Shown here: positions 4,589-55,224 of the stretch, piece after piece
Layout of the letters: every line of letters starts with the position of its first letter
Position numbering within the stretch: position 1 is the first letter of the stretch
Source of the DNA: an uncultured Bacilli bacterium
Lineage (GTDB): Bacteria; Bacillota_I; Bacilli_A; RF39; UBA660
Direction of reading: 5' to 3'
DNA length: 64,000 nucleotides
Assembly: GCA_947627385.1 (NCBI GenBank)
Contig: CANQVV010000001.1
Span: 40,865 to 104,864 of the forward strand
The notes under the pieces: generated by a model
What the model was told of the DNA's origin: nothing
Databases searched by the model: none
Seen by the model: the letters and a program-made list of their open reading frames with translations, nothing else
Position numbers and translations under genes: made by a program

Positions 4589-5192
4589 GACCTTTAAGTA
4601 ATAAATTATCTAATTTTAAATGCAGTTTTTTTAAAGCTGGTACTTTACTTATAATTTCATTATTCTTATCAATTAAATATTGATAATATTCATCATTATT
4701 ACTTATACCAAATTTTAATTCTTTATAATTAAGTCTTTGTTTACCTATATTACATAATAATATAATATAATAATGTCCTTTTTCTAAGATAGCTTTTTCA
4801 TCAATTATTTTATATCCTCTTTTATTTAGTTCTTTTCTTAATCGATAATGTTCATTATTACTAGCAAGAACTAATCTAGAAGGAGTTTTTTTATGTTCAA
4901 TTATTTTTAAAATATTACTTGTACCCATGCCAGCAATAACGGCAGTTGTTATATTTACATCAATATTCTCAAAACCATCTGATAAAAAACTTTGAATATC
5001 TAAATGATATTTTTTAAAATTATTTTGAGCTACACTTAATGCTTGTTTAGAAATATCACTCACATATACTTCTTGACATAAATTATGTTGTTTTAAATAG
5101 ATAGCTAAATAACCATGATCACAACCAACATCTAAGACTATATCCTTAGTACTTATTTCATCAGCTAAGGCTTTTATTCTTTCACTATTCAT
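4572..5192 (-). CDS. trmK: tRNA (adenine22-N1)-methyltransferase TrmK
   Basis: SAM-MTase motif VLDVGCDHGYL. Conserved position directly downstream of sigA, as yqfN in Bacillus. Confidence 0.8.
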   Translation of the reverse strand: MNSERIKALADEISTKDIVLDVGCDHGYLAIYLKQHNLCQEVYVSDISKQALSVAQNNFKKYHLDIQSFLSDGFENIDVNITTAVIAGMGTSNILKIIEHKKTPSRLVLASNNEHYRLRKELNKRGYKIIDEKAILEKGHYYIILLCNIGKQRLNYKELKFGISNNDEYYQYLIDKNNEIISKVPALKKLHLKLDNLLLKGLIERK

Positions 5193-6298
5193 TAGTTATC
5201 TAGAAAATCTTTCAATTTCTTAGCTCTTGATGGATGTCTTAATTTTCTTAGAGCTTTGGCTTCAATTTGTCTTATTCTTTCTCTGGTGACATTAAATCTT
5301 TTGCCAACATCTTCTAAGGTATGACAAGTGCCATCGATAAGACCAAATCTAAGTTCAAGAACTTCTTGTTCTCTTGGTTGTAATGTTTGTAACACATCTT
5401 TAATTTCTTCTTTTAAAATTTCATTTTCAGTATATTCCTCTGGTGATAAACTGCTTTCATCTTTTAAGAAATCTCCTAAATGTGAATCATCTTCTTCCCC
5501 AATTGGAGTTTCTAATGAAACTGGTTCTTGACTAATTTTGATAACTTCTCTAACTTTATCAACAGAAATTCCCATCTTTTTAGCAATTTCTTCATCAGAA
5601 GGTTCACGATTAAGTTCCAAAGTCATTTGTCTTTGTACTCTAACCATCTTATTAATTGTTTCAACCATGTGAACTGGTACTCTTATAGTTCGAGCTTGAT
5701 CAGCAAGAGCTCTGGTAATAGCTTGTCTTATCCACCAAGTAGCATAGGTTGAAAATTTATAACCCTTATCATAGTCAAATTTTTCAACAGCTTTCATTAA
5801 ACCAATATTACCTTCTTGAATTAAATCTAAGAATAGAAGTCCCCGACCAACATAACGTTTAGCAATACTAACAACCAAACGTAAATTAGATTCAGCTAAA
5901 ATTCTTTTAGCTTCTTCATCACCATCAGCAATTCGAATACTAATATTCATTTCTTCTTCGGAAGAAAGTAAACTAATTCGACCAATTTCTTTTAAATACA
6001 TTCTAACTGGATCATTAATATTAACATCTTTGGTTATTTCATTATCATCTAAAATAATTGGCTCTGTTTCTAATTCAGCTGGATTTTCCCCAGCATCAGT
6101 AGCATCCTCAGCATCTTCCTCTGTAATAACTGTAATTCCTGCATCAACAAAGGAATTATATAAATCATCCAAAGAATCACTATCAATATCTAAACCTTTT
6201 AAGGACTCTGCTAATTCTTCAAAGGTAATAAAACCTTTTTCTTCTCCTTTTTTGATTAATTCTTCTTTTCTTTCTGCAAATGTTTTAATTTCTACCAT
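5192..6298 (-). CDS. rpoD: RNA polymerase primary sigma factor SigA/RpoD
   Basis: Regions 1.2 to 4.2 recognisable ([38 protein letters not shown]). dnaG-rpoD synteny. Confidence 0.95.
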
Positions 6299-6301
6299 TT
6301 T

Positions 6302-8053
6302 CTACACTTCCTTTTTTACATCCATCATTTTTTTATGAATAGCAATTTGCTTATTAATATTTTCTATTTGTTCATTTATATCAATAGAATTATTTATTTT
6401 TTCTTTTATTTTATTAATATCATCTTGCTCCAATAATTTAATCGTCGCATTTAAATAATCTAAAAATTCCCTATCATCTAATTCTTCTATTTCTACTATT
6501 CCACTTATATTATTAACAAATTCTCTAATTTTATCGTCTGATTCAGCATAACTTAAAAAATCAGCCAAATTTATTTTACCATATTTTTTTATATAATATT
6601 CAATTTCTGTAATTAAATATCTTTCCAAAGGATTTTTTAAATATCCTAATTTGCTATTAAACATTTTTAGATATTTTTTATCACTCATTAAATAATATAA
6701 AAGATAATTAACACAAGTAGTATATTTATCTTTTTTAGATAAAGTTATATCTTTTTTTATTATTAATGGTTTATTTTTATTATCAAAATTAATTTCTTGT
6801 TTTAATATTTCATAATCTATATCATATTCTTTACTTAATTTTTTTAAAGTAATTTCTTTCGTTAAATTATCACTATTATCAAGCATTTTTAATACTGATT
6901 TTATATAATTAATTAATTCATCAGTATTATTCAAATTTTTATTTTCTTTTAATTGCAATAATTTATAATCAAAGAAATCAATACTATGTTTAATTGTATC
7001 TTGAAAAGCCTCTATGCCAAATTTAACAATATATTCATCTGGATCTTTGGCTCCCTTTAATCTTACTACTCTAACTTCTAAATTATTTTTTATTAATTCA
7101 TCCCCAACATTTAAAGTAGCCATTTCCCCAGCATTGTCATTATCAAGCATTAATATAATTGGTACTCTTAGTTTTTTCAATATTTCTATTTGTTCTTTGG
7201 TTATAACTGTTCCCATTAAAGCTAAAACATTTTTTATACCACTAGAATGCATTCTAATCGCATCCATATTACCTTCGACTATAATAGCACATTTACTTTC
7301 ATGAATATATTTTTTAGCATTATAATAATTAAAAATAATATTGCCCTTTTTATAAATTATAGTTTCTTTGGTATTTACATATTTAGCACTATCTTCACCA
7401 TTAAATATTCGTCCCGTAAAGCCAACAACTTCTCCATTTAAATTAGTAATTGGTATCATTATTCGATTAACAAATTTATCATATCCTGTTAAACCATCTT
7501 TATTTATAAGACCTAATTCTTCTAATTTATTAATATCATATTTTTTCTTTGTTAAAACATTATATAAATAAGTATTATCAGGAAGAGCTAAACCAATTTG
7601 AAATTCTTTAATAATTTCTTCATTAATACTTCTTTCTTTTAAATATTCTTTGGCTTTAATTCCTTCTTTACTATTTAAATTATTTTGAAATATTTTCGAA
7701 GCAAAATCCATTATTTCATATTCTTTTTGATACTTACTAACTGTTTTTTTAGTTTCCGTATATTGAAGAGGAATCCCTACTTTATCAGCAACTTTTTTAA
7801 CAGCTTCCATAAAAGAAATATTTTCATAATCTTTTACAAATGTAAAAACATTACCTCCCTTATTGCAAACAAAACATTTAAATAATTGTCTTTCTTTTGA
7901 TACTGACATACTTGGGGTATGATCATCATGAAATGGACATTTACCAAAATAATTCTTACCTTGCATTTTAAGAGGTATATAATCAGATATAATACTAACA
8001 ATATCTGCTGAATTTCTTATTTCATTAATTTTATCTTCTTCTATGAATTGCAT
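6302..8053 (-). CDS. dnaG: DNA primase DnaG
   Basis: Zinc ribbon CPFHDDHTPSMSV...CFVC, TOPRIM domain EGNMDAI. Sits upstream of rpoD. Confidence 0.95.
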   Translation of the reverse strand: MQFIEEDKINEIRNSADIVSIISDYIPLKMQGKNYFGKCPFHDDHTPSMSVSKERQLFKCFVCNKGGNVFTFVKDYENISFMEAVKKVADKVGIPLQYTETKKTVSKYQKEYEIMDFASKIFQNNLNSKEGIKAKEYLKERSINEEIIKEFQIGLALPDNTYLYNVLTKKKYDINKLEELGLINKDGLTGYDKFVNRIMIPITNLNGEVVGFTGRIFNGEDSAKYVNTKETIIYKKGNIIFNYYNAKKYIHESKCAIIVEGNMDAIRMHSSGIKNVLALMGTVITKEQIEILKKLRVPIILMLDNDNAGEMATLNVGDELIKNNLEVRVVRLKGAKDPDEYIVKFGIEAFQDTIKHSIDFFDYKLLQLKENKNLNNTDELINYIKSVLKMLDNSDNLTKEITLKKLSKEYDIDYEILKQEINFDNKNKPLIIKKDITLSKKDKYTTCVNYLLYYLMSDKKYLKMFNSKLGYLKNPLERYLITEIEYYIKKYGKINLADFLSYAESDDKIREFVNNISGIVEIEELDDREFLDYLNATIKLLEQDDINKIKEKINNSIDINEQIENINKQIAIHKKMMDVKKEV

Positions 8054-21445: not shown

Positions 21446-21503
21446 ATATCCCCCTTAAATGCATTAAAATAATAGCATAACCATTAATTTTTGTCAAATT
21501 AAA

Positions 21504-21524
21504 ATCCCTATAAATAGGGATTAA
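21504..21524 (-). terminator. hairpin terminator after tRNA-Ser
   Basis: AATCCCTA-TAAA-TAGGGATT is a perfect 8-bp stem, followed by T-rich sequence on the minus strand. Confidence 0.5.
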
Positions 21525-21533
21525 AATTCAATA

Positions 21534-21624
21534 TGGCGGAGCAGGAGAGATTTGAACTCTCGCGACAGTTACCCGTCCTACACCCTTAGCAGGGGCGCCT
21601 CTTCAGCCTCTTGAGTACTACTCC
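21534..21624 (-). tRNA. tRNA-Ser (anticodon GCT)
   Basis: 91 nt cloverleaf with long variable arm. Anticodon loop CTGCTAA. Encoded CCA. Confidence 0.9.
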
Positions 21625-21731: not shown

Positions 21732-23276
21732 TTATACTTCATTAAAATCTGTTACTTGATTAATATTATTTTGATATTCATTAATTACTAATCCTTTGGT
21801 TGTAAGAAGCATCCCAGCAATAGAAACGGCACTTGTAAGTGAATTAATTACAACTAATGTTGGATCAATTACTTCGGAAGTTACAATATCTTCAAATTTA
21901 TCTTTTTTAACATTATATAATATTTGATAATCATTTAATTTTATTTTGGAAAATATTGTATTATAATCCAGACCAGCATTTATTAATATTTGTTCTAATG
22001 GTTTTAGTAAAGCTTCTTTTAAAATAATGGCGCCATTATTTGAACTTGTTAAAACACTACTAATTTTACTTAAAATTACCCCCATTCCCGGTAAAATGCC
22101 TTCATAAGCTACGGAAACAGCACATAAAGCATCATCAAAGCGCATCTTTTTTTCTCTTCTTTCAGTAATTGTTTTAGCCCCCACTAATATCTCTACACTT
22201 CCCTTTTCTAACATTGTTAAGCGTTTTTGAATGAAATCTTTTTCAGTTATAGTATTTTTTAAATCTTCATTTAAATTAATAAGTAACTTCTTTACTTGAT
22301 CATTAAATTTGAAATTAATTATAACTTCATTATTATTAATTGTTACTTTTTCAACGGTATTAATATCATTCATTGTAATAATTTGGTTATTAATTATATT
22401 ACTATTACTAATTGCACTTAAATCTTGTAATATTTGTATTTGCCTGATACCAAATTCAGGAGTTTTTAGTAAAATAACTTTTTCATTATTTTCTAAATTA
22501 TATTCTAAAATATTTTGAATAAATAAATCATCATAATCATTGGCAATAATAATTAAATCTTTTTTTAATTTATTTACTCTATTTATAACTTCACTAACTA
22601 TTTCTAAATTACTTAAATATCCATTATAAAGCATCATATAACTATTAAAAAATTCTTTACTTTCTAAACCATTTAAAAAATAGGGAGAAGCCAATAAACT
22701 TGAAAATCGATAACCTTTTAAGTAACGAATCATACACTTATCTTGATCATATTCTTTAATAGTTATAGCACTTTTATCTAATACTTGTAAGTATGCTTCA
22801 CTAACAATTTGACCTATTTCATTATCATTGCTAGAAACACTTGCTACCAATTTAATTTCTTCTTTACTAGGTGTTCGCGATATTTTTTGAATTTGTTCAA
22901 CAATTTCATTTAAGGTGTTATCTAATTCTTTTTTTAAAATAATAGGATTTATTCCTTCTTTAACTAACTTTAACCCAGTATTAAAAATACTTTGTAATAA
23001 TACTAAGGTTGTAGTAGTACCATCACCAACTTTTTCATTAGTATTAATAGCGGCTTCTTTGGCTAATTCTAAAATAGTATTAACCACTTCATTTTCACTA
23101 GCAATATTTTCTGCAATAGTTACACCATCATTGGTAATAAACGGACTAAATGCTGAATGATCAATAATAACATTGTTACCTTTTGGTCCCATAGTTATTT
23201 TAACATTATCACAAAGTAAATTAATTGCTTCTTGCATATAATTATATAATTCTTGATTACTAACAACTTTTTTCAT
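21732..23276 (-). CDS. divergent GroEL/Cpn60-family chaperonin paralog (no GroES partner, no GGM tail)
   Basis: GPKGNNVII, ITNDGVTIA and GDGTTTTLVL match the GroEL equatorial motifs. The GGG motif is GMG (LPGMGVIL). The Gly-Gly-Met C-terminal tail is missing. Its start overlaps the stop of the upstream gene. Confidence 0.7.
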   Translation of the reverse strand: MKKVVSNQELYNYMQEAINLLCDNVKITMGPKGNNVIIDHSAFSPFITNDGVTIAENIASENEVVNTILELAKEAAINTNEKVGDGTTTTLVLLQSIFNTGLKLVKEGINPIILKKELDNTLNEIVEQIQKISRTPSKEEIKLVASVSSNDNEIGQIVSEAYLQVLDKSAITIKEYDQDKCMIRYLKGYRFSSLLASPYFLNGLESKEFFNSYMMLYNGYLSNLEIVSEVINRVNKLKKDLIIIANDYDDLFIQNILEYNLENNEKVILLKTPEFGIRQIQILQDLSAISNSNIINNQIITMNDINTVEKVTINNNEVIINFKFNDQVKKLLINLNEDLKNTITEKDFIQKRLTMLEKGSVEILVGAKTITERREKKMRFDDALCAVSVAYEGILPGMGVILSKISSVLTSSNNGAIILKEALLKPLEQILINAGLDYNTIFSKIKLNDYQILYNVKKDKFEDIVTSEVIDPTLVVINSLTSAVSIAGMLLTTKGLVINEYQNNINQVTDFNEV

Positions 23277-24019
23277 AATTCATCCCTCACTTCTAATAAA
23301 TATGGCCAATACTTTTTTGGCATAAAATTTTGTCTACATGACAAATTTTTTCTTTCTTTAATTCCTATCGTTTGATAAAACAATTGCCATAAACTAGCAA
23401 ATTCATCTTCATCTACACTTTTATTATGAGCATTTATTATTAAATCAGAAGTTTTAATAATATAAAAATTCTGTTTATCATAAATACTTATTATTTTTCT
23501 CTCAACATCTTCAATCATCCAATATTCATTTTTAAGTCTATTTTTAAAATGAATAGATAATAAATATAAAATATCATTATCCGGTTTAATCTTAGCATAT
23601 AAAACTTTATTTTTTAGTTCTACAAAACGAACAAATCCTTTCATTTTATGATTTTCCCGACTTACTTTTTGACTTATTCTTAATGTTTCACTAACACATT
23701 TTAAATTACGCATATAATTTAAATTATTTTTATATTTTGGATAATTAAGTAAATAATAATAAATTATTAACTCTTTGTTATTTTCATTAGATATAAAAAC
23801 ATAGTAAATAATTTTTAAAATATACTTATCATACAATTGTAAATATAATTTTATTATATCTTGCTTATTTTCTAATTTTAAATTGATTATATTTTCAAAC
23901 ATATCAGCATTATAATTAATAGGTTTTATATTAAAAGGTCTTGTATTATTACTTAATAAATAATTTATTAACTCTAAAAGATTTAAAAAATTGCCATTAT
24001 ATAAATAAACATTTGCCAT
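23273..24019 (-). CDS. DUF4130/TIGR03915-like probable DNA metabolism protein (partner of the radical-SAM DNA repair-like protein)
   Basis: ~250 aa. C-terminal RQNFMPKKYWPYLLE motif, recalled for this family. Translationally coupled to the radical-SAM gene upstream. Confidence 0.6.
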   Translation of the reverse strand: MANVYLYNGNFLNLLELINYLLSNNTRPFNIKPINYNADMFENIINLKLENKQDIIKLYLQLYDKYILKIIYYVFISNENNKELIIYYYLLNYPKYKNNLNYMRNLKCVSETLRISQKVSRENHKMKGFVRFVELKNKVLYAKIKPDNDILYLLSIHFKNRLKNEYWMIEDVERKIISIYDKQNFYIIKTSDLIINAHNKSVDEDEFASLWQLFYQTIGIKERKNLSCRQNFMPKKYWPYLLEVRDEL

Positions 24020-25233
24020 TAAAACAATTGCAACTGCTTTCCATAAGTTAATTGTTTTACATTATCATTTAATACTAAATTAGCTTCGATAAAATTTTTA
24101 TTAAAATATTCTGGATTAAAATCAAATTTACCATTACATGTAATAAAATATCTAGCTCTTTTTAATACTACACCCATTTTTTTTAAATCTTTAAAAGTTA
24201 ACTTAAAATGACGTCTCGAAGTTATTATTCTCTTAGCAGATGTAACACCTATCCCAGGTATATGTAATAAATCTTGATAACTACAAGTATTTACTTCTTT
24301 GGGAAATTCTTGTAAATGTTTTAATGCCCAAGAAGCTTTGGGATCAACTAAAATATTTAAATTAGGATTTTTTTCATCTAAAATATCTGAAACTTTAAAG
24401 CCATAATAACGTAATAACCAATCCGCTTGATATAATCTATTTTCTCTTTTTAATGGGGGAATTTCTAAACTAGGCAAAAGTGTATCCTTATTAATAGGAA
24501 TATATGCTGAATAAAACACTCTTTTTAATCGATAATTTTGGTACATTGAAAAACTTTTATTCATAATATCTAAATCACTTTCTTTGGTGGCACCGATTAT
24601 CATTTGCGTACTTTGACCAGCCGGAACATAATCTTTATTATGATTATCTTTAACATATTGCATTATTTTTTGAACCTTATCACCACTTTTATTGGGAGCT
24701 AATAATTTTAAACCATTTTCAGTAGAAAGTTCAATATTGGCACTAACGCGATCAGCAAGCAGCCCTATTTTTTTTAATAAATGTTCACTAGCCCCGGGTA
24801 TTGCTTTAACATGGATATAGCCACCAAAATGATATTTACCTCTTAAAAGTTGCAAAGTTTCGATAAGTAAATTCATTGTATCATCAGGTGATTTTATAAT
24901 TCCTGAACTTAAAAATAACCCTTCAATATAATTTCTTCGATAAAAATTAATAGTTATTTCACATATTTCTTCTGGGGTGAATATTGCTCTTTTTATATTA
25001 TTACTTTTACGATTAATACAATATTTACAATCAAAGATACAAGCATTAGTTAATAAAATTTTTAATAACGATATACATCTGCCATCAGATGAAAAAGAAT
25101 GACAAATACCAGCATAAGAAGTATTGCCTAAATTACTGCTGCCACGCCCATGGGAACCACTAGATGAACAAGAGGCATCATATTTAGCACTTTCAGCAAG
25201 TATTTGTAATTTTTCTTTCAATTCCATATTCAC
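24019..25233 (-). CDS. putative DNA modification/repair radical SAM protein (TIGR03916-like) with C-terminal helix-hairpin-helix
   Basis: CxxxCxxC cluster CIFDCKYC. C-terminal HhH LLHIPGIGVTSAKRII. 404 aa. Confidence 0.7.
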   Translation of the reverse strand: MNMELKEKLQILAESAKYDASCSSSGSHGRGSSNLGNTSYAGICHSFSSDGRCISLLKILLTNACIFDCKYCINRKSNNIKRAIFTPEEICEITINFYRRNYIEGLFLSSGIIKSPDDTMNLLIETLQLLRGKYHFGGYIHVKAIPGASEHLLKKIGLLADRVSANIELSTENGLKLLAPNKSGDKVQKIMQYVKDNHNKDYVPAGQSTQMIIGATKESDLDIMNKSFSMYQNYRLKRVFYSAYIPINKDTLLPSLEIPPLKRENRLYQADWLLRYYGFKVSDILDEKNPNLNILVDPKASWALKHLQEFPKEVNTCSYQDLLHIPGIGVTSAKRIITSRRHFKLTFKDLKKMGVVLKRARYFITCNGKFDFNPEYFNKNFIEANLVLNDNVKQLTYGKQLQLF

Positions 25234-25312
25234 TCACCAATTATATTATAACAATGTTTTTATCAAAAAGCAAACATTTGTTTATAACTTGGCAAATATT
25301 AACAATATCAAT

Positions 25313-40123: not shown

Positions 40124-40150
40124 TTTTTGACATATAAAAAGCAAGCATTT
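40124..40150 (-). terminator. rho-independent terminator of the spoVA operon
   Basis: AAGCAAGCA-TTT-TGCTTGCTT hairpin followed by a T-rich run on the minus strand, directly after the spoVAEb stop. Confidence 0.6.
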
Positions 40151-40156
40151 GCTTGC

Positions 40157-40504
40157 TTAATCTTTTGCTTTAAAAATAAGTGTAAAGATAAAAGAAAATA
40201 CAACCACAGTTACAATTGCTATTCCTGATGAACATAATAATTTAGAAAACAATCCTAAAATACCGCCTTCTTCAAATCCAGCTAAACCAGATTGGTAAAG
40301 CATATGACCAAAATTAGCAATTAATGCTGTGGCCCCAGCACCAGCCCAAGCAACAATTTTATCATAGATACCTAAAAATGATAAAAAAGCTCCGATAACA
40401 GTAACACTACTTGTTATATGTCCTGGTGTTAGTTTAGTATTATCTAGTACTATTTGGCAAATAAGACAAACTAAGCCAGCAAAAATAAAGGCTTGAAAAT
40501 ACAT
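40157..40504 (-). CDS. spoVAEb: stage V sporulation protein AEb
   Basis: 115 aa membrane protein paralogous to SpoVAC. Third gene of the spoVAC-D-Eb triad. Confidence 0.85.
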   Translation of the reverse strand: MYFQAFIFAGLVCLICQIVLDNTKLTPGHITSSVTVIGAFLSFLGIYDKIVAWAGAGATALIANFGHMLYQSGLAGFEEGGILGLFSKLLCSSGIAIVTVVVFSFIFTLIFKAKD

Positions 40505-53535: not shown

Positions 53536-53634
53536 ACTACTATTATAATATCTTTTAAAACACTTAACAAGATAAGAAATTACCAAAAATAGGTATTGTA
53601 CTTTTAAATATTTTATACTATACTTTAATTGTCA

Positions 53635-53648
53635 CGAACAAATGTTGG
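53635..53648. promoter_or_regulatory. Cheo/LexA-like box CGAACAAATGTTGG
   Basis: 12/14 match to CGAACATATGTTCG, 16 nt upstream of the ATG of the Y-family polymerase gene. Confidence 0.45.
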
Positions 53649-53663
53649 TTTGGAGGTGGAATA

Positions 53664-54908
53664 ATGTATCCTAAAAGAAGTATTTTATGCATTGATTTAA
53701 AAAGCTTTTTTGCTTCCGTAGAATGTGTTGAAAAAGGACTAGATCCCTTTAATTACCCTTTGGTAGTGGCCAATGCAAAACAAGGAAATGGGGCAATTAC
53801 TTTGGCTGTTACTCCTTATTTAAAAAAGATGGGAGTTAAATCACGAGGTCGTATTTATGAGATTGATCCTCATATTAAATACTATATTGCTAATCCGAGA
53901 ATGAATTTATATATTGAATATAGTAAAAAAATTATTAGTATCTATCTAGATTTTGTCAGTGAAGAAGATTTACTTGTTTATTCGGTTGATGAATGTTTCT
54001 TAGATATTACTAATTATTTAAAAATGTATCAAAAAACAGATATAGAATTAGCTAAGGAAATTTTAAATACTATTTATCAGAAAACCAAATTAACCGCTAC
54101 ATGTGGTATTGGTGATAATATGCTTTTAGCCAAAGTAGCTATGGATATAGAAGCTAAACATAATAAAAATAATATTGCCAAATGGACTTATGATGATGTT
54201 CAAAATAAATTATGGACTATCTCTCCTCTATCTAATATGTGGGGCATTGGAAAAAGAATGGAAAATAATTTAAATAAAATGGGAATTTATAGTGTTGGTG
54301 ATTTAGCAAAATATGATGAAAATAAATTAAAAGACAAATTTGGAATTATGGGTATTGAATTATGGAATCATGCTAATGGAATTGATTTAAGTAAAATATC
54401 TGATCATAAAAAATTAGCTAAAACTGAATCATTTAGTCACTCCCAAGTATTATTTAAAGATTATAATGAAAACAATATCAAAATTATTATTTCAGAAATG
54501 GTTGATGTTGTTACATCCAAAATGCGAAAGCATAATAAACTTACTAAATGTATTGGTTTTGGAATCGGTTATTCCAAAGAAATTGACAATGGTTTTTATC
54601 ATACTTTAAAGTTAGATAACCCTACGGATAATACCGAGGAAATTTTAAAATATTGCTTACTAATATTTGATAAATTTTATGAAAATTTGCCAATTAGAAA
54701 AGTTACTATTTGCTGTGGTAATTTACAAAATAAGCAAGATGTTCAGTTAACTTTATTTACTAATGATAAAAAAATAGATAATATTAATGATACTGTTGAT
54801 AATATTAAAAATAAATTTGGTAAAAATAGTTTATTAAAAGCCTCTAATCTTTTAGATGATTCTACGGCTATTGAACGAAATAAGAAAACTGGTGGTCATG
54901 ATGCCTAA
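53664..54908 (+). CDS. Y-family DNA polymerase (UmuC/DinB-like; UvrX/YqjW type)
   Basis: N-terminal ILCIDLKSFFASVE plus VDECFLD catalytic motifs. 414 aa. Confidence 0.85.
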   Translation: MYPKRSILCIDLKSFFASVECVEKGLDPFNYPLVVANAKQGNGAITLAVTPYLKKMGVKSRGRIYEIDPHIKYYIANPRMNLYIEYSKKIISIYLDFVSEEDLLVYSVDECFLDITNYLKMYQKTDIELAKEILNTIYQKTKLTATCGIGDNMLLAKVAMDIEAKHNKNNIAKWTYDDVQNKLWTISPLSNMWGIGKRMENNLNKMGIYSVGDLAKYDENKLKDKFGIMGIELWNHANGIDLSKISDHKKLAKTESFSHSQVLFKDYNENNIKIIISEMVDVVTSKMRKHNKLTKCIGFGIGYSKEIDNGFYHTLKLDNPTDNTEEILKYCLLIFDKFYENLPIRKVTICCGNLQNKQDVQLTLFTNDKKIDNINDTVDNIKNKFGKNSLLKASNLLDDSTAIERNKKTGGHDA

Positions 54909-55224
54909 TTTTAATGATCGTGGTATTATTAAATGGCAACCATTTAATTCTTGTTTTAATTGTGAAGAAATGATGCAAGATATTGAAAAGGCAAAAAATA
55001 AACAAAAATATCCTATATTATCCGAAGATCAGCTAAGTAATTTAGAGCATCAAATTATTAATGCCTATAATTTAAAATTAACTATTAAAATTTTTTATTA
55101 TTATGATGGTAATATAAAAAATGAAAATGGTCAGATAAATTATTTAAATACACATACTAAAAAATTATATTTAAATAATATAAAAATATACTTTAACCAA
55201 ATATTAAAAATTAGTGAATATTAG
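54898..55224 (+). CDS. YolD-like protein (UmuD-functional partner family)
   Basis: RGIIKWQPF motif. Overlaps the polymerase stop, as in Bacillus yqjW-yqjX / uvrX-yolD. Confidence 0.65.
   Translation: MMPNFNDRGIIKWQPFNSCFNCEEMMQDIEKAKNKQKYPILSEDQLSNLEHQIINAYNLKLTIKIFYYYDGNIKNENGQINYLNTHTKKLYLNNIKIYFNQILKISEY

What the first reader, a model, noticed from the sequence alone, without database searches (positions are those of the whole stretch)
21732..25233. Translationally coupled operon: radical-SAM DNA-repair-like protein, DUF4130 partner, and a divergent orphan GroEL-like chaperonin
CDS 24019..25233 has a CxxxCxxC cluster plus a C-terminal HhH, as in TIGR03916 (putative DNA modification/repair radical SAM). 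CDS 23273..24019 resembles its usual partner DUF4130/TIGR03915. The stop and start codons overlap (24019; ATGA at 23273-23276). The third gene is a Cpn60-family protein. It keeps the DGTTT ATP-binding signature, but GGG has become GMG, it lacks the GGM tail and it has no groES. A chaperonin paralog fused into this poorly understood DNA-repair/modification pair has not been described, as far as I know.
Basis: partly seen in the sequence, partly recalled or inferred. Interest (0 to 1): 0.7.

Follow-up and report, generated by a model that had tools for sequence, protein, structure and literature searches.

The report
SOS-controlled DNA-repair operon with captive GroEL
A group of uncultured low-GC gut bacteria has welded a fast-evolving, GroES-less copy of the GroEL chaperonin onto a two-gene radical-SAM "DNA repair" operon that appears to be switched on by DNA damage, an arrangement I found described in no paper and one that gives a handle on a widespread repair system of unknown function.

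Summary
Three minus-strand genes overlap at their junctions (TAATG, ATGA): a TIGR03916 radical-SAM/HhH protein (24019..25227), its TIGR03915/DUF4130 partner (23273..24019), and a Cpn60-fold protein, here "CPNL" (21732..23276), that scores below every curated GroEL cutoff.

The trio is not a local accident. It recurs in the same order, with overlapping junctions, in 52 of 53 testable species-level genomes and in every CPNL-anchored contig, while the flanking genes differ.

CPNL keeps the whole GroEL ATP site and, in a confident model, the three-domain fold. It has lost the GGM tail, the R197-E386 and inter-ring contacts, and two apical hydrophobic positions. It evolves far faster than canonical GroEL (mean pairwise identity 43% versus 85-88%) but under purifying selection.

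A conserved Firmicute LexA (Cheo)-type operator overlaps the operon promoter in about 60 genomes. The window's only other strong copy precedes a Y-family polymerase/yolD pair. No CIRCE element or groES is associated with the trio.

Best reading: an SOS-controlled repair operon with a dedicated, GroES-independent, GroEL-derived ATPase. That role is inferred, not shown.

Unresolved: whether these genomes also carry a canonical groESL.

The parts
25272..25283 (-). LexA (Cheo-box)-like palindromic operator AAACAAATGTTT; the PWM 18-mer spans 25269-25286. It overlaps the -35 region of the operon promoter.
   Evidence: Pattern match. The same C[AG]AAC-N4-GTT[TC]G element sits at about -55 from the rSAM ATG in 61 distinct homologous loci, with a perfect GAACATTTGTTC in Clostridium paridis. 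It is the best PWM hit in the window; the second best precedes the Y-family polymerase gene. At 13 bits or more, 65 of 66 hits in 1.01 Mb of related loci are at rSAM promoters.
25245..25273 (-). Putative sigma-A promoter: -35 TTGCTT (25273-25268), 17-nt spacer, extended -10 TGTTATAAT (25253-25245).
   Evidence: Read from the sequence. A TATAAT-like -10 sits at the same distance from the ATG in nearly all homologous loci. The consensus scan is uninformative in this AT-rich DNA, so this is an inference.
24019..25227 (-). Radical-SAM/HhH protein, 402 aa. Cluster motif C63-x3-C67-x2-C70, C-terminal helix-hairpin-helix, SD GGTGAG at 25238-25233.
   Evidence: TIGR03916 at 604.7 bits vs cutoff 343.5, covering 5-401; PF04055; HHH_3 E=1e-5. 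Identity to homologues is 63-79%.
23273..24019 (-). DUF4130 partner protein, 248 aa, with no uracil-DNA-glycosylase domain. Its start overlaps the rSAM stop by 1 nt.
   Evidence: TIGR03915 at 195.5 bits vs cutoff 112.25; PF13566 at 150.4 bits. Junction read.
21732..23276 (-). CPNL: a divergent GroEL-derived ATPase, 514 aa, with a conserved non-GGM C-terminal tail. Its start ATG overlaps the DUF4130 stop (ATGA).
   Evidence: PF00118 at 147.9 bits, below all GroEL cutoffs. Identity to E. coli GroEL is 30%. ATP-site residues are invariant in 55 family members. AF2 pLDDT 91, TM 0.87 to GroEL subunits. The junction overlap is conserved in all of about 58 distinct loci.
21503..21624 (-). Downstream boundary: tRNA-Ser(GCT) at 21534-21624, with its own TTGACT-17-TAAAAT promoter at 21673-21645, followed by the first terminator-like hairpin at 21522-21503.
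   Evidence: ARAGORN and the terminator scan. No terminator-like site lies between the CPNL stop and the tRNA.

Best explanation
This is a three-gene operon that DNA damage most likely switches on. A LexA-type operator overlapping the promoter would keep it repressed until the SOS response is triggered.

The first two products are the widespread but uncharacterised radical-SAM/HhH enzyme (TIGR03916) and its DUF4130 partner (TIGR03915). Others predict that they form a heterodimer acting on nucleic acid.

The third product is specific to one lineage of uncultured low-GC gut Bacilli. It is a GroEL-derived ATPase made in fixed coupling with the pair, because its start codon always overlaps the DUF4130 stop. 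It keeps the ATP-hydrolysis machinery and part of the apical hydrophobic groove. It has shed the features tied to the GroES-dependent double-ring cycle.

I propose that it works without GroES as a dedicated chaperone or assembly factor for the rSAM-DUF4130 complex. For example, it could fold or hold the oxygen- and stress-labile Fe-S enzyme when it is suddenly made after damage.

Shown: family membership, operon anatomy, conservation of the trio, the operator motif and its specificity, the residue conservation pattern, purifying selection, and a confidently predicted GroEL fold.

Inferred: LexA binding and induction, physical interaction of CPNL with the pair, GroES independence, and the chaperone role.
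For: (1) The trio is conserved in order and orientation in 52/53 testable species-representative genomes. It is also found in all CPNL-anchored contigs. The flanking genes differ between loci: RecD2, sigE/ftsZ, ZnuA, Ku/LigD.

(2) The DUF4130-CPNL junction overlaps in every distinct locus: ATGA in 29, and 17-23 nt in about 23.

(3) Operator. The Cheo-type palindrome lies at the same promoter position in 61 loci. At 13 bits or more, 65 of 66 hits in 1.01 Mb lie at rSAM promoters; the other precedes a gene whose product begins like the recombination ATPase RarA (AAA+ Walker A motif; my reading, not profile-tested). In the window the only other strong site lies 14 nt before a Y-family polymerase + YolD pair, which are classical SOS genes. 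The CPNL-less pair in Clostridium paridis carries a perfect GAACATTTGTTC. LexA control of TIGR03916/03915 operons has been predicted in Verrucomicrobia (PMC4951493).

(4) The ATP site is invariant in 55 members: T30, G32, P33, D52, D87, T89, T90, D398, G414, D495.

(5) Canonical features are lost. There is no GGM tail. R197/E386 and R452/E461/S463/V464 are not conserved. L234 and V264 are replaced by small or polar residues. There is no GroES in the window or in about 1 Mb of homologous loci. There is no CIRCE at the operon, whereas canonical groESL of other low-GC gut Bacilli has one.

(6) Rates. CPNL mean pairwise identity is 42.8%, against 70% for rSAM and 85-88% among canonical GroELs of comparable genomes. 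dN/dS is 0.07-0.26, so it is a functional gene and not a relic.

(7) AF2 gives an intact three-domain GroEL fold with pLDDT 91.

(8) An AF3 study independently predicts a confident rSAM-DUF4130 heterodimer (bioRxiv 10.64898/2026.08.19.745780).
Against: There is no direct evidence that CPNL touches the rSAM-DUF4130 complex, or that it has chaperone activity. Its oligomeric state is unknown.

The operator is assigned to LexA by motif similarity and by its neighbours, not by binding data. No lexA gene lies in the window.

The rest of the genome was not available, so a canonical groESL, which the 'dedicated paralog' reading expects, has not been seen. The canonical groESL loci I recovered belong only to distant relatives: RpoD 61%, S2 57-61% and SpoVAD 41% identity.

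The rSAM-DUF4130 pair functions without any CPNL in other bacteria such as C. paridis, so CPNL is not intrinsically required by the pair.
Confidence: 0.55

Rival explanations
1. CPNL is simply this lineage's only chaperonin: the housekeeping groEL, relocated next to the rSAM pair and evolving fast in reduced genomes, with groES lost or elsewhere. On this view the linkage has no functional meaning for DNA repair.
For: No canonical groES/groEL was seen in the 64-kb window or in any +-10 kb flank of about 60 related genomes. These organisms are labelled Bacilli/Tenericutes/Erysipelotrichaceae, a neighbourhood in which, from my own knowledge of the literature, GroEL has been lost repeatedly in Mollicutes. 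My attempts to find a canonical GroEL in a trio-bearing genome failed.
Against: A general chaperonin would not be expected behind an SOS-type operator with no CIRCE. HrcA/CIRCE is in use in these genomes, for example in front of hsp20 in L041.

Its rate of change (43% mean identity; dN/dS 2-3 times that of the neighbouring rSAM) is unlike any housekeeping GroEL; canonical copies in comparable genomes are 85-88% identical.

The GGM tail, ring-ring contacts and part of the GroES/substrate groove are gone. Kumar et al. 2025 report that bacteria with several chaperonins always keep one Gly-Met-tailed copy (PMC11978752).

A relocation by chance would not stay glued by overlapping codons in more than 55 species while all flanks change.
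Confidence: 0.17
2. CPNL is not a protein-folding chaperone. It would be a working subunit of the repair machine: an ATP-driven module that binds DNA or damaged nucleoprotein, or delivers and opens the substrate for the radical-SAM enzyme.
For: A GroEL homologue that binds DNA and associates with the nucleoid exists: M. tuberculosis GroEL1 (PMC2731897). Stoichiometric, translationally coupled synthesis with the pair is conserved. DUF4130 and CPNL divergences track each other closely (r=0.88). A conserved family-specific C-terminal motif (INEYxNNxNKxxDYNEL) replaces the GGM tail. In some genomes the operon lies next to Ku/LigD end-joining genes.
Against: Nothing in the sequence points to DNA binding. 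The tail is acidic/aromatic, not basic or His-rich. The retained Y203/F204 and hydrophobic helix H/I positions fit polypeptide binding. The r=0.88 correlation can arise simply because both genes evolve fast in the same genomes.
Confidence: 0.15
3. The trio is a mobile anti-phage defence or DNA-modification cassette rather than a chromosomal repair operon.
For: The cassette sits in different genomic contexts in different species. Radical-SAM and DNA-modifying enzymes occur in defence systems (general knowledge).
Against: None of the three proteins hits PADLOC. No integrase, transposase or repeats flank the cassette in the window. GC content matches the surroundings. The operator is shared with a Y-family polymerase gene. 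rSAM, DUF4130 and CPNL divergences are consistent with vertical descent.
Confidence: 0.04

Closest known systems
[quoted passage not shown]
   Same: The first two genes are full members by curated profile, adjacent and overlapping, and preceded by a LexA-type site. This matches predictions for Verrucomicrobia and the SOS linkage noted by Aravind and co-workers (PMC4951493, PMC3765255).
   Different: DUF4130 here has no uracil-DNA-glycosylase domain. A third, Cpn60-derived gene is fused into the operon, which none of the papers found on this pair mentions.
Specialised GroEL paralogs in bacteria with multiple chaperonins (e.g. mycobacterial GroEL1: KasA client, DNA binding; chlamydial GroEL2/GroEL3)
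   Same: A group I chaperonin fold with a non-GGM C-terminus, no adjacent groES, faster evolution and a presumably narrow role (PMC5904260, PMC2731897, PMC1892554, PMC11978752).
   Different: CPNL is much more divergent: 25-31% identity to E. coli GroEL, and NF038370/NF038369 scores of 77 and 63 bits against a cutoff of 600. It is translationally coupled to non-chaperone genes. It sits behind an SOS-type operator rather than a heat-shock control element. A coexisting canonical copy has not been demonstrated.
Canonical GroEL-GroES (TIGR02348 / PF00166), HrcA-CIRCE regulated in Firmicutes
   Same: The same three-domain fold (TM 0.87 to GroEL subunits) and a fully conserved nucleotide site.
   Different: It scores below the equivalog cutoff (321.8 vs 582.1). 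It has no groES, no CIRCE and no GGM tail. R197-E386 and the inter-ring contacts are lost, and K51 is N in 54/55 members. Mean family identity is 43%, against 85-88% for canonical copies in similar genomes.
Co-chaperonin-independent phage GroEL-like proteins (e.g. PDB 6tmt 'putative GroEL-like chaperonine')
   Same: A GroEL homologue encoded without an adjacent GroES.
   Different: Only a remote sequence relation (70.6 bits). CPNL is chromosomal, lineage-wide and operon-embedded.

Membership tests
[quoted passage not shown] | Full-length match to the curated HMM above its cutoff | tested here: met
   604.7 bits vs 343.5, residues 5-401 on profile positions 1-412 of 415
[quoted passage not shown] | CxxxCxxC [4Fe-4S]/SAM motif and C-terminal helix-hairpin-helix | tested here: met
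   C63-x3-C67-x2-C70 read in the translation. PF04055 at 38.7 bits. HHH_3 at 26.0 bits (E=1e-5), just under its 27-bit cutoff.
[quoted passage not shown] | Encoded next to a TIGR03915 partner in one operon | tested here: met
   1-nt overlap at 24019. Adjacent in all homologous loci.
[quoted passage not shown] | Radical-SAM chemistry on DNA | not testable with these tools
   No member has a published activity in the papers found
TIGR03915 / PF13566 DUF4130 | Match to the curated HMMs above cutoff | tested here: met
   TIGR03915 at 195.5 vs 112.25; PF13566 at 150.4 vs 27
TIGR03915 / PF13566 DUF4130 | Fused uracil-DNA-glycosylase domain (present in many members, not all) | tested here: not met
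   The 248-aa protein shows only the DUF4130 hit. This is not a defining feature of the HMM family.
Chaperonin GroEL (TIGR02348 equivalog and NCBIfam GroEL subfamilies) | Score at or above the curated cutoff | tested here: not met
   TIGR02348 at 321.8 vs 582.1; the best subfamily, NF009487, at 344.1 vs 352
Chaperonin GroEL (TIGR02348 equivalog and NCBIfam GroEL subfamilies) | Nucleotide-binding and hydrolysis residues (T30, G32, P33, D52, D87-T91, D398, G414, D495) | tested here: met
   Invariant in 55 family members. The exceptions are T91 (S in 6), K51->N (54/55) and a variable G415.
Chaperonin GroEL (TIGR02348 equivalog and NCBIfam GroEL subfamilies) | Adjacent groES co-chaperonin gene | tested here: not met
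   No GroES-like sequence in the window or in about 1 Mb of homologous loci (best E=0.02). Canonical loci L069-L102 all have Cpn10.
Chaperonin GroEL (TIGR02348 equivalog and NCBIfam GroEL subfamilies) | Gly-Met-rich C-terminal tail | tested here: not met
   The tail is ...INEYQNNINQVTDFNEV. The family consensus is INEYxNNxNKxNDYNE.
Chaperonin GroEL (TIGR02348 equivalog and NCBIfam GroEL subfamilies) | Apical hydrophobic substrate/GroES-binding residues (Y199, Y203, F204, L234, L237, L259, V263, V264) | tested here: inconclusive
   Y203, F204, L237, L259 and V263 are kept or conservatively replaced. Y199 becomes L/I/V. L234 becomes S/A and V264 becomes S/A/N.
Chaperonin GroEL (TIGR02348 equivalog and NCBIfam GroEL subfamilies) | Heptameric double-ring assembly and ring-ring contacts (R452, E461, S463, V464) | tested here: not met
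   The contact residues are not conserved. The oligomeric state itself is not testable here.
Cpn60/TCP-1 superfamily (PF00118), group I fold | Pfam match above the gathering score and a three-domain fold | tested here: met
   147.9 bits vs 34.3. AF2 pLDDT 91; Foldseek TM 0.87 to 4v4o/5opx GroEL chains. Thermosome/CCT models score only 30-62 bits.
Firmicute SOS (LexA) regulon | Cheo-box-type palindrome (GAAC-N4-GTTC-like) overlapping the promoter, conserved in orthologous promoters and shared with known SOS genes | tested here: met
   The site is shared with the Y-family polymerase/yolD pair. The consensus itself comes from established knowledge of B. subtilis LexA.
Firmicute SOS (LexA) regulon | LexA binding and damage induction | not testable with these tools
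   No lexA in the window; no expression data
Known anti-phage defence systems (PADLOC-DB 2.0) | Any of the three proteins matching a defence-system model | tested here: not met
   0 families at E<=0.01 for all three proteins

The most novel reading that the evidence does not exclude
The GroEL derivative is an integral, ATP-driven third subunit of a damage-induced radical-SAM DNA-repair machine. It would be a chaperonin cage or ring repurposed to load, shield or remodel the enzyme-DNA (or DNA-protein) substrate. It would not be a folding helper. On this reading the lineage may have no conventional GroEL/GroES at all.
Probability: 0.15. Interest if true: 0.85.

Novelty: new variant of a known kind. 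Interest (0 to 1): 0.66.

Why it matters
The TIGR03916/TIGR03915 pair is reported in about a fifth of sequenced bacterial genomes (PMC4951493) and is linked to the SOS response there and in PMC3765255. No biochemical function was found for it in the papers read. A lineage in which the pair is permanently coupled to a GroEL-derived ATPase gives an experimental lever. One can co-express the three proteins, ask what CPNL binds, and see whether it is needed to obtain active enzyme.

For chaperonin biology it would be a clear natural case of a group I chaperonin captured by a single pathway. CPNL is co-translated with non-chaperone genes, has no GroES nearby, carries a new conserved C-terminal motif, and is apparently under DNA-damage rather than heat-shock control. 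It is therefore a test bed for which GroEL features are dispensable outside the canonical cycle.

If these genomes turn out to lack canonical groESL, it would also be a new route of chaperonin reduction in the Mollicutes-like Bacilli.

Tried and rejected
(1) PADLOC scan of all three proteins gave nothing.

(2) Full-text literature searches (DUF4130; TIGR03915/6; radical SAM + GroEL; LexA + chaperonin; GroEL-like + radical SAM) found only the two-gene pair. The supplements of the AF3 DUF paper are not held, and the 2015 multiple-chaperonin review is not held.

(3) I tried several routes to show a canonical groESL in a trio-bearing genome.
- I searched with the least divergent CPNL (L050) and then with the best canonical hit (P0131).
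- Cluster look-up gave no accessions.
- Six context look-ups returned canonical groES-groEL with CIRCE, but only from distant relatives or bulk metagenomes.

(4) Looking for CIRCE at the trio found none at the operon. It occurs only elsewhere in some flanks, e.g. before hsp20.

(5) The sigma-70 consensus scan is uninformative in 25% GC DNA: 38 found vs 37 expected.

(6) Counting the raw pattern RAAC-N4-GTTY in the window alone is not above chance: 3 vs 4.35 expected. The evidence for the operator is its cross-species positional conservation and PWM specificity, not that count.

(7) A more distant tail-less GroEL-like cluster (P0404) was checked for the same linkage. It sits in a different context, so the linkage is specific to the CPNL clade.

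(8) The NJ tree is used only for CPNL monophyly. Deeper placement is unreliable because of long branches.


Full report
**What is there.** The region lies in a window of about 25% GC from a spore-forming Firmicute. By my reading of the ORF translations, sigE/spoIIGA, sigF, spoVA and ftsAZ lie in the same window. Three minus-strand ORFs occupy 21732..25233.

- The 5' gene matches TIGR03916 full length (604.7 bits, cutoff 343.5), with Radical_SAM and an HhH match. It carries C63-x3-C67-x2-C70.
- The middle gene matches TIGR03915 (195.5 vs 112.25) and PF13566/DUF4130.
- The 3' gene is a Cpn60_TCP1 protein (147.9 bits) that falls below every curated GroEL cutoff. TIGR02348 scores 321.8 vs 582.1 and the best subfamily 344.1 vs 352. 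It scores only 77 and 63 bits on the chlamydial GroEL2/3 models and 30-62 bits on thermosome/CCT models.

I call the third protein CPNL. The junctions are as described: TAATG at 24019, and ATGA at 23273-23276 with a GAGGGA Shine-Dalgarno.

Two corrections apply. The rSAM start is more plausibly ATG 25227, because GGTGAG lies upstream, homologues align from this Met, and public gene calls give 402 aa. The GGG->GMG change is private to this genome. A tRNA-Ser with its own promoter, followed by a terminator-like hairpin, lies downstream. The window holds no groES and no second groEL.

**Is the linkage real?** The exact CPNL protein and three homologues at 50-59% identity all sit in rSAM-DUF4130-CPNL trios, with unrelated flanking genes.

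I scanned one genome per GTDB species with the rSAM protein. This returned 59 loci. Nearly all are uncultured 'Bacilli/Tenericutes/Erysipelotrichaceae' MAGs from rabbit, mouse, ruminant, chicken and other animal guts.

tblastn shows the trio in 52 of the 53 loci with enough downstream DNA. The exception is Clostridium paridis (rSAM 55% identical), which has only the pair. A CPNL-anchored scan of JGI metagenomes added four more trios.

In all of about 58 distinct loci the CPNL start overlaps the DUF4130 stop: ATGA in 29, and 17-23 nt in about 23. The cassette is therefore a conserved, translationally coupled unit. It was acquired before this lineage diversified.

**What kind of GroEL is it?** Aligned to E. 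coli GroEL, 55 family members keep the nucleotide site intact. T30, G32, P33, D52, G53, D87, G88, T89, T90, D398, G414 and D495 are invariant.

In the apical domain S201, Y203 and F204 are largely kept. L237, L259 and V263 stay hydrophobic. L234 and V264 become small or polar.

Several canonical features are gone.
- The R197-E386 salt bridge and the inter-ring contacts (R452, E461, S463, V464) are not conserved.
- K51 is Asn in 54/55 members.
- The (GGM)4M tail is replaced by a family-specific conserved motif, INEYxNNxNKxNDYNE.

AlphaFold2 with a 72-sequence family alignment gives a confident three-domain model (pLDDT 91, pTM 0.83). Only the last 13 residues are disordered. Foldseek matches GroEL/Cpn60 subunits best, with TM 0.87 to GroES-bound chains of 4v4o and 5opx. 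The modelled conformation is not evidence of function.

CPNL is 25-31% identical to E. coli GroEL, or 37% for a slow-evolving subclade around L050. Canonical GroELs from other low-GC gut Bacilli are 56% identical to E. coli GroEL.

Mean pairwise identity within the trio genomes is 70% for rSAM, 49.7% for DUF4130 and 42.8% for CPNL. Canonical GroELs of comparable low-GC genomes are 85-88% identical to one another.

Between close species pairs, CPNL has dN/dS of 0.07-0.26. That is purifying selection, similar to DUF4130 and 2-3 times the rSAM value.

An exhaustive search of 1.84 billion cluster representatives finds roughly 55-60 full-length 50%-identity clusters scoring above the canonical-GroEL level. 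An NJ tree places all trio-linked CPNLs, including the L050 clade, in one group. One more distant tail-less GroEL-like cluster that I checked (P0404) lies in a different context.

**Regulation.** I aligned the 160 nt upstream of rSAM across the loci. This reveals a conserved palindrome, C[AG]AAC-N4-GTT[TC]G, mostly at -55 from the ATG and overlapping the -35 region. The window copy is AAACAAATGTTT at 25272-25283. This is the Firmicute LexA (Cheo-box) consensus known from B. subtilis. C. paridis, which has only the pair, carries a perfect GAACATTTGTTC.

A PWM built from these sites has its best window hit at the rSAM promoter. Its second-best hit is at 53633-53650, 14 nt before a gene pair that Pfam identifies as a Y-family polymerase (IMS domains) and YolD, which are textbook SOS genes.

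Across 1.01 Mb of homologous loci, 65 of 66 hits at 13 bits or more are rSAM promoters. The single outlier precedes a gene whose product begins like the recombination ATPase RarA, with an AAA+ Walker A motif. That is my reading and was not profile-tested.

The raw pattern count in the window alone is not above chance. The argument rests on positional conservation and specificity.

No CIRCE element is associated with the trio. CIRCE precedes groES in every canonical locus recovered. It also occurs elsewhere in several trio-bearing contigs, for example before hsp20 in L041. LexA control of TIGR03916/03915 operons has been predicted in Verrucomicrobia (PMC4951493). The pair was linked to SOS systems by Aravind and co-workers (PMC3765255).

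**Interpretation.** The best-supported reading is an SOS-controlled three-gene operon. The first two products probably form the heterodimer that a recent AF3 study independently predicts to act on nucleic acid. CPNL is a lineage-specific GroEL-derived ATPase produced in fixed coupling with them.

CPNL retains the ATPase and part of the polypeptide-binding groove. It has lost the GroES-cycle and double-ring features. I therefore favour a GroES-independent, dedicated chaperone or assembly role for the Fe-S enzyme complex. This step is inferred. No interaction or activity has been tested.

There are three rivals.
- (a) CPNL is the sole, relocated housekeeping chaperonin. This is made unlikely by the regulation, the rate and the lost features, but it is not excluded because I could not examine whole genomes.
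- (b) CPNL is a DNA- or nucleoprotein-directed module, by analogy with mycobacterial GroEL1 (PMC2731897).
- (c) The trio is a mobile defence or modification cassette. There is no support for this, and PADLOC is negative.

**The open point.** It remains unanswered.

The canonical groES-groEL loci I recovered are 25-31% GC, carry CIRCE and are 56% identical to E. coli GroEL. They come from organisms only distantly related to the trio bearers: RpoD 61%, ribosomal protein S2 57-61% and SpoVAD 41% identity. Other attempts hit bulk metagenomes.

Kumar et al. [quoted passage not shown] If that rule holds here, these genomes have either a canonical copy or no conventional chaperonin at all. Either outcome leaves CPNL as a specialised derivative.

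**Novelty and score.** Specialised GroEL paralogs and the rSAM/DUF4130 pair are each known. I found no paper describing a GroEL derivative hard-wired by overlapping codons into this pair behind an SOS-type operator across a whole lineage.

I rate it a new variant of a known kind, with interest 0.66. It is surprising to chaperonin specialists. It also makes the function of a widespread orphan repair system more tractable. The mechanism is still inferred.

Noticed in passing
window 53633-53650, with genes 53664..54908 (+) and 54856..55224 (+): A Y-family DNA polymerase (IMS domains) and an overlapping YolD-like gene are preceded, 14 nt before the ATG, by CACGAACAAATGTTGGTT. This is the second-best match in the window to the operator PWM, so it is a likely second SOS unit.
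   Followed up: partly
L041 2433-9433 (Candidatus Onthocola stercoravium contig DVHV01000010.1); CIRCE-like sites also in L035, L037, L042, L047, L049, L052, L054, L061: In this clade the trio lies next to an end-joining cluster: Ku, an ATP-dependent ligase, LigD Prim-Pol/phosphoesterase and DUF1848. A CIRCE element (TTAGCACTC-N9-AACTGCTAA) sits in front of an hsp20 gene. HrcA/CIRCE control therefore exists in trio-bearing genomes, but not at the trio.
   Followed up: partly
L032 6498-6513, upstream of the minus-strand gene 5078..6406: This is the only strong operator-PWM hit outside rSAM promoters in 1 Mb of related loci. It precedes a gene whose product begins like RarA/MgsA (AAA+ Walker A motif); the assignment is my reading and was not profile-tested.
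   Followed up: partly
L050 11976..13550 and proteins P0121-P0127: A slow-evolving CPNL subclade (37% identical to E. coli GroEL, 44% to canonical Clostridia GroEL, GGG retained) is still embedded in the trio. It is useful as an intermediate for reconstructing how CPNL diverged. The MAG is labelled Muribaculaceae although the locus is 26.6% GC, so it is probably mislabelled or mis-binned.
   Followed up: partly
proteins P0404, P0406, P0407, P0410, P0412, P0414, P0420, P0424, P0440, P0450, P0469, P0489; locus L103: Many other tail-less, 500-526-aa GroEL-like clusters with AT-rich amino-acid composition exist in metagenomes. The one looked up (P0404, L103) is not in a trio. It sits after a 75-aa ORF and before unknown genes and a sulfotransferase. 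The others have unknown contexts.
   Followed up: partly
proteins P0397 (1078 aa) and P0405 (1081 aa): Two double-length proteins each carry two DGTTT motifs, so they appear to be tandem Cpn60 fusions. They come from GC-rich organisms and were not examined further.
   Followed up: no
window about 25284-25300 and the equivalent positions in related loci: A T(T)GCCAAAAATT-like element lies 5-30 nt upstream of the operator. A strict form, CCAA[AG][ATG][AT]T, occurs in 13 of 65 upstream regions against about 3 expected. The spacing is variable and the role unknown.
   Followed up: partly
window 40140-40157: A perfect 18-nt palindrome, AGCAAGCATTTGCTTGCT, lies just downstream of the spoVA genes. 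It is the third-ranked PWM hit (12.7 bits) but its half-sites differ (AAGC/GCTT). It is probably unrelated, perhaps a terminator stem or another operator.
   Followed up: no
window 24019..25227, N-terminus of the rSAM protein: Three further cysteines lie upstream of the CxxxCxxC motif: C20, C42 and C51, in DASCSSSG...GICHSF...DGRC. The same three motifs are seen in the two homologues read (C. paridis and L041), which could point to an auxiliary cluster or metal site. Wider conservation was not checked.
   Followed up: no
loci L069-L078 (protein P0131): The canonical GroEL of a prevalent 28% GC gut bacterium ends in ...KKEEKSCNCGHNDAEQGMY instead of GGM repeats. It still has groES and CIRCE. 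Tail loss alone is therefore not diagnostic of a non-canonical chaperonin in these lineages.
   Followed up: no
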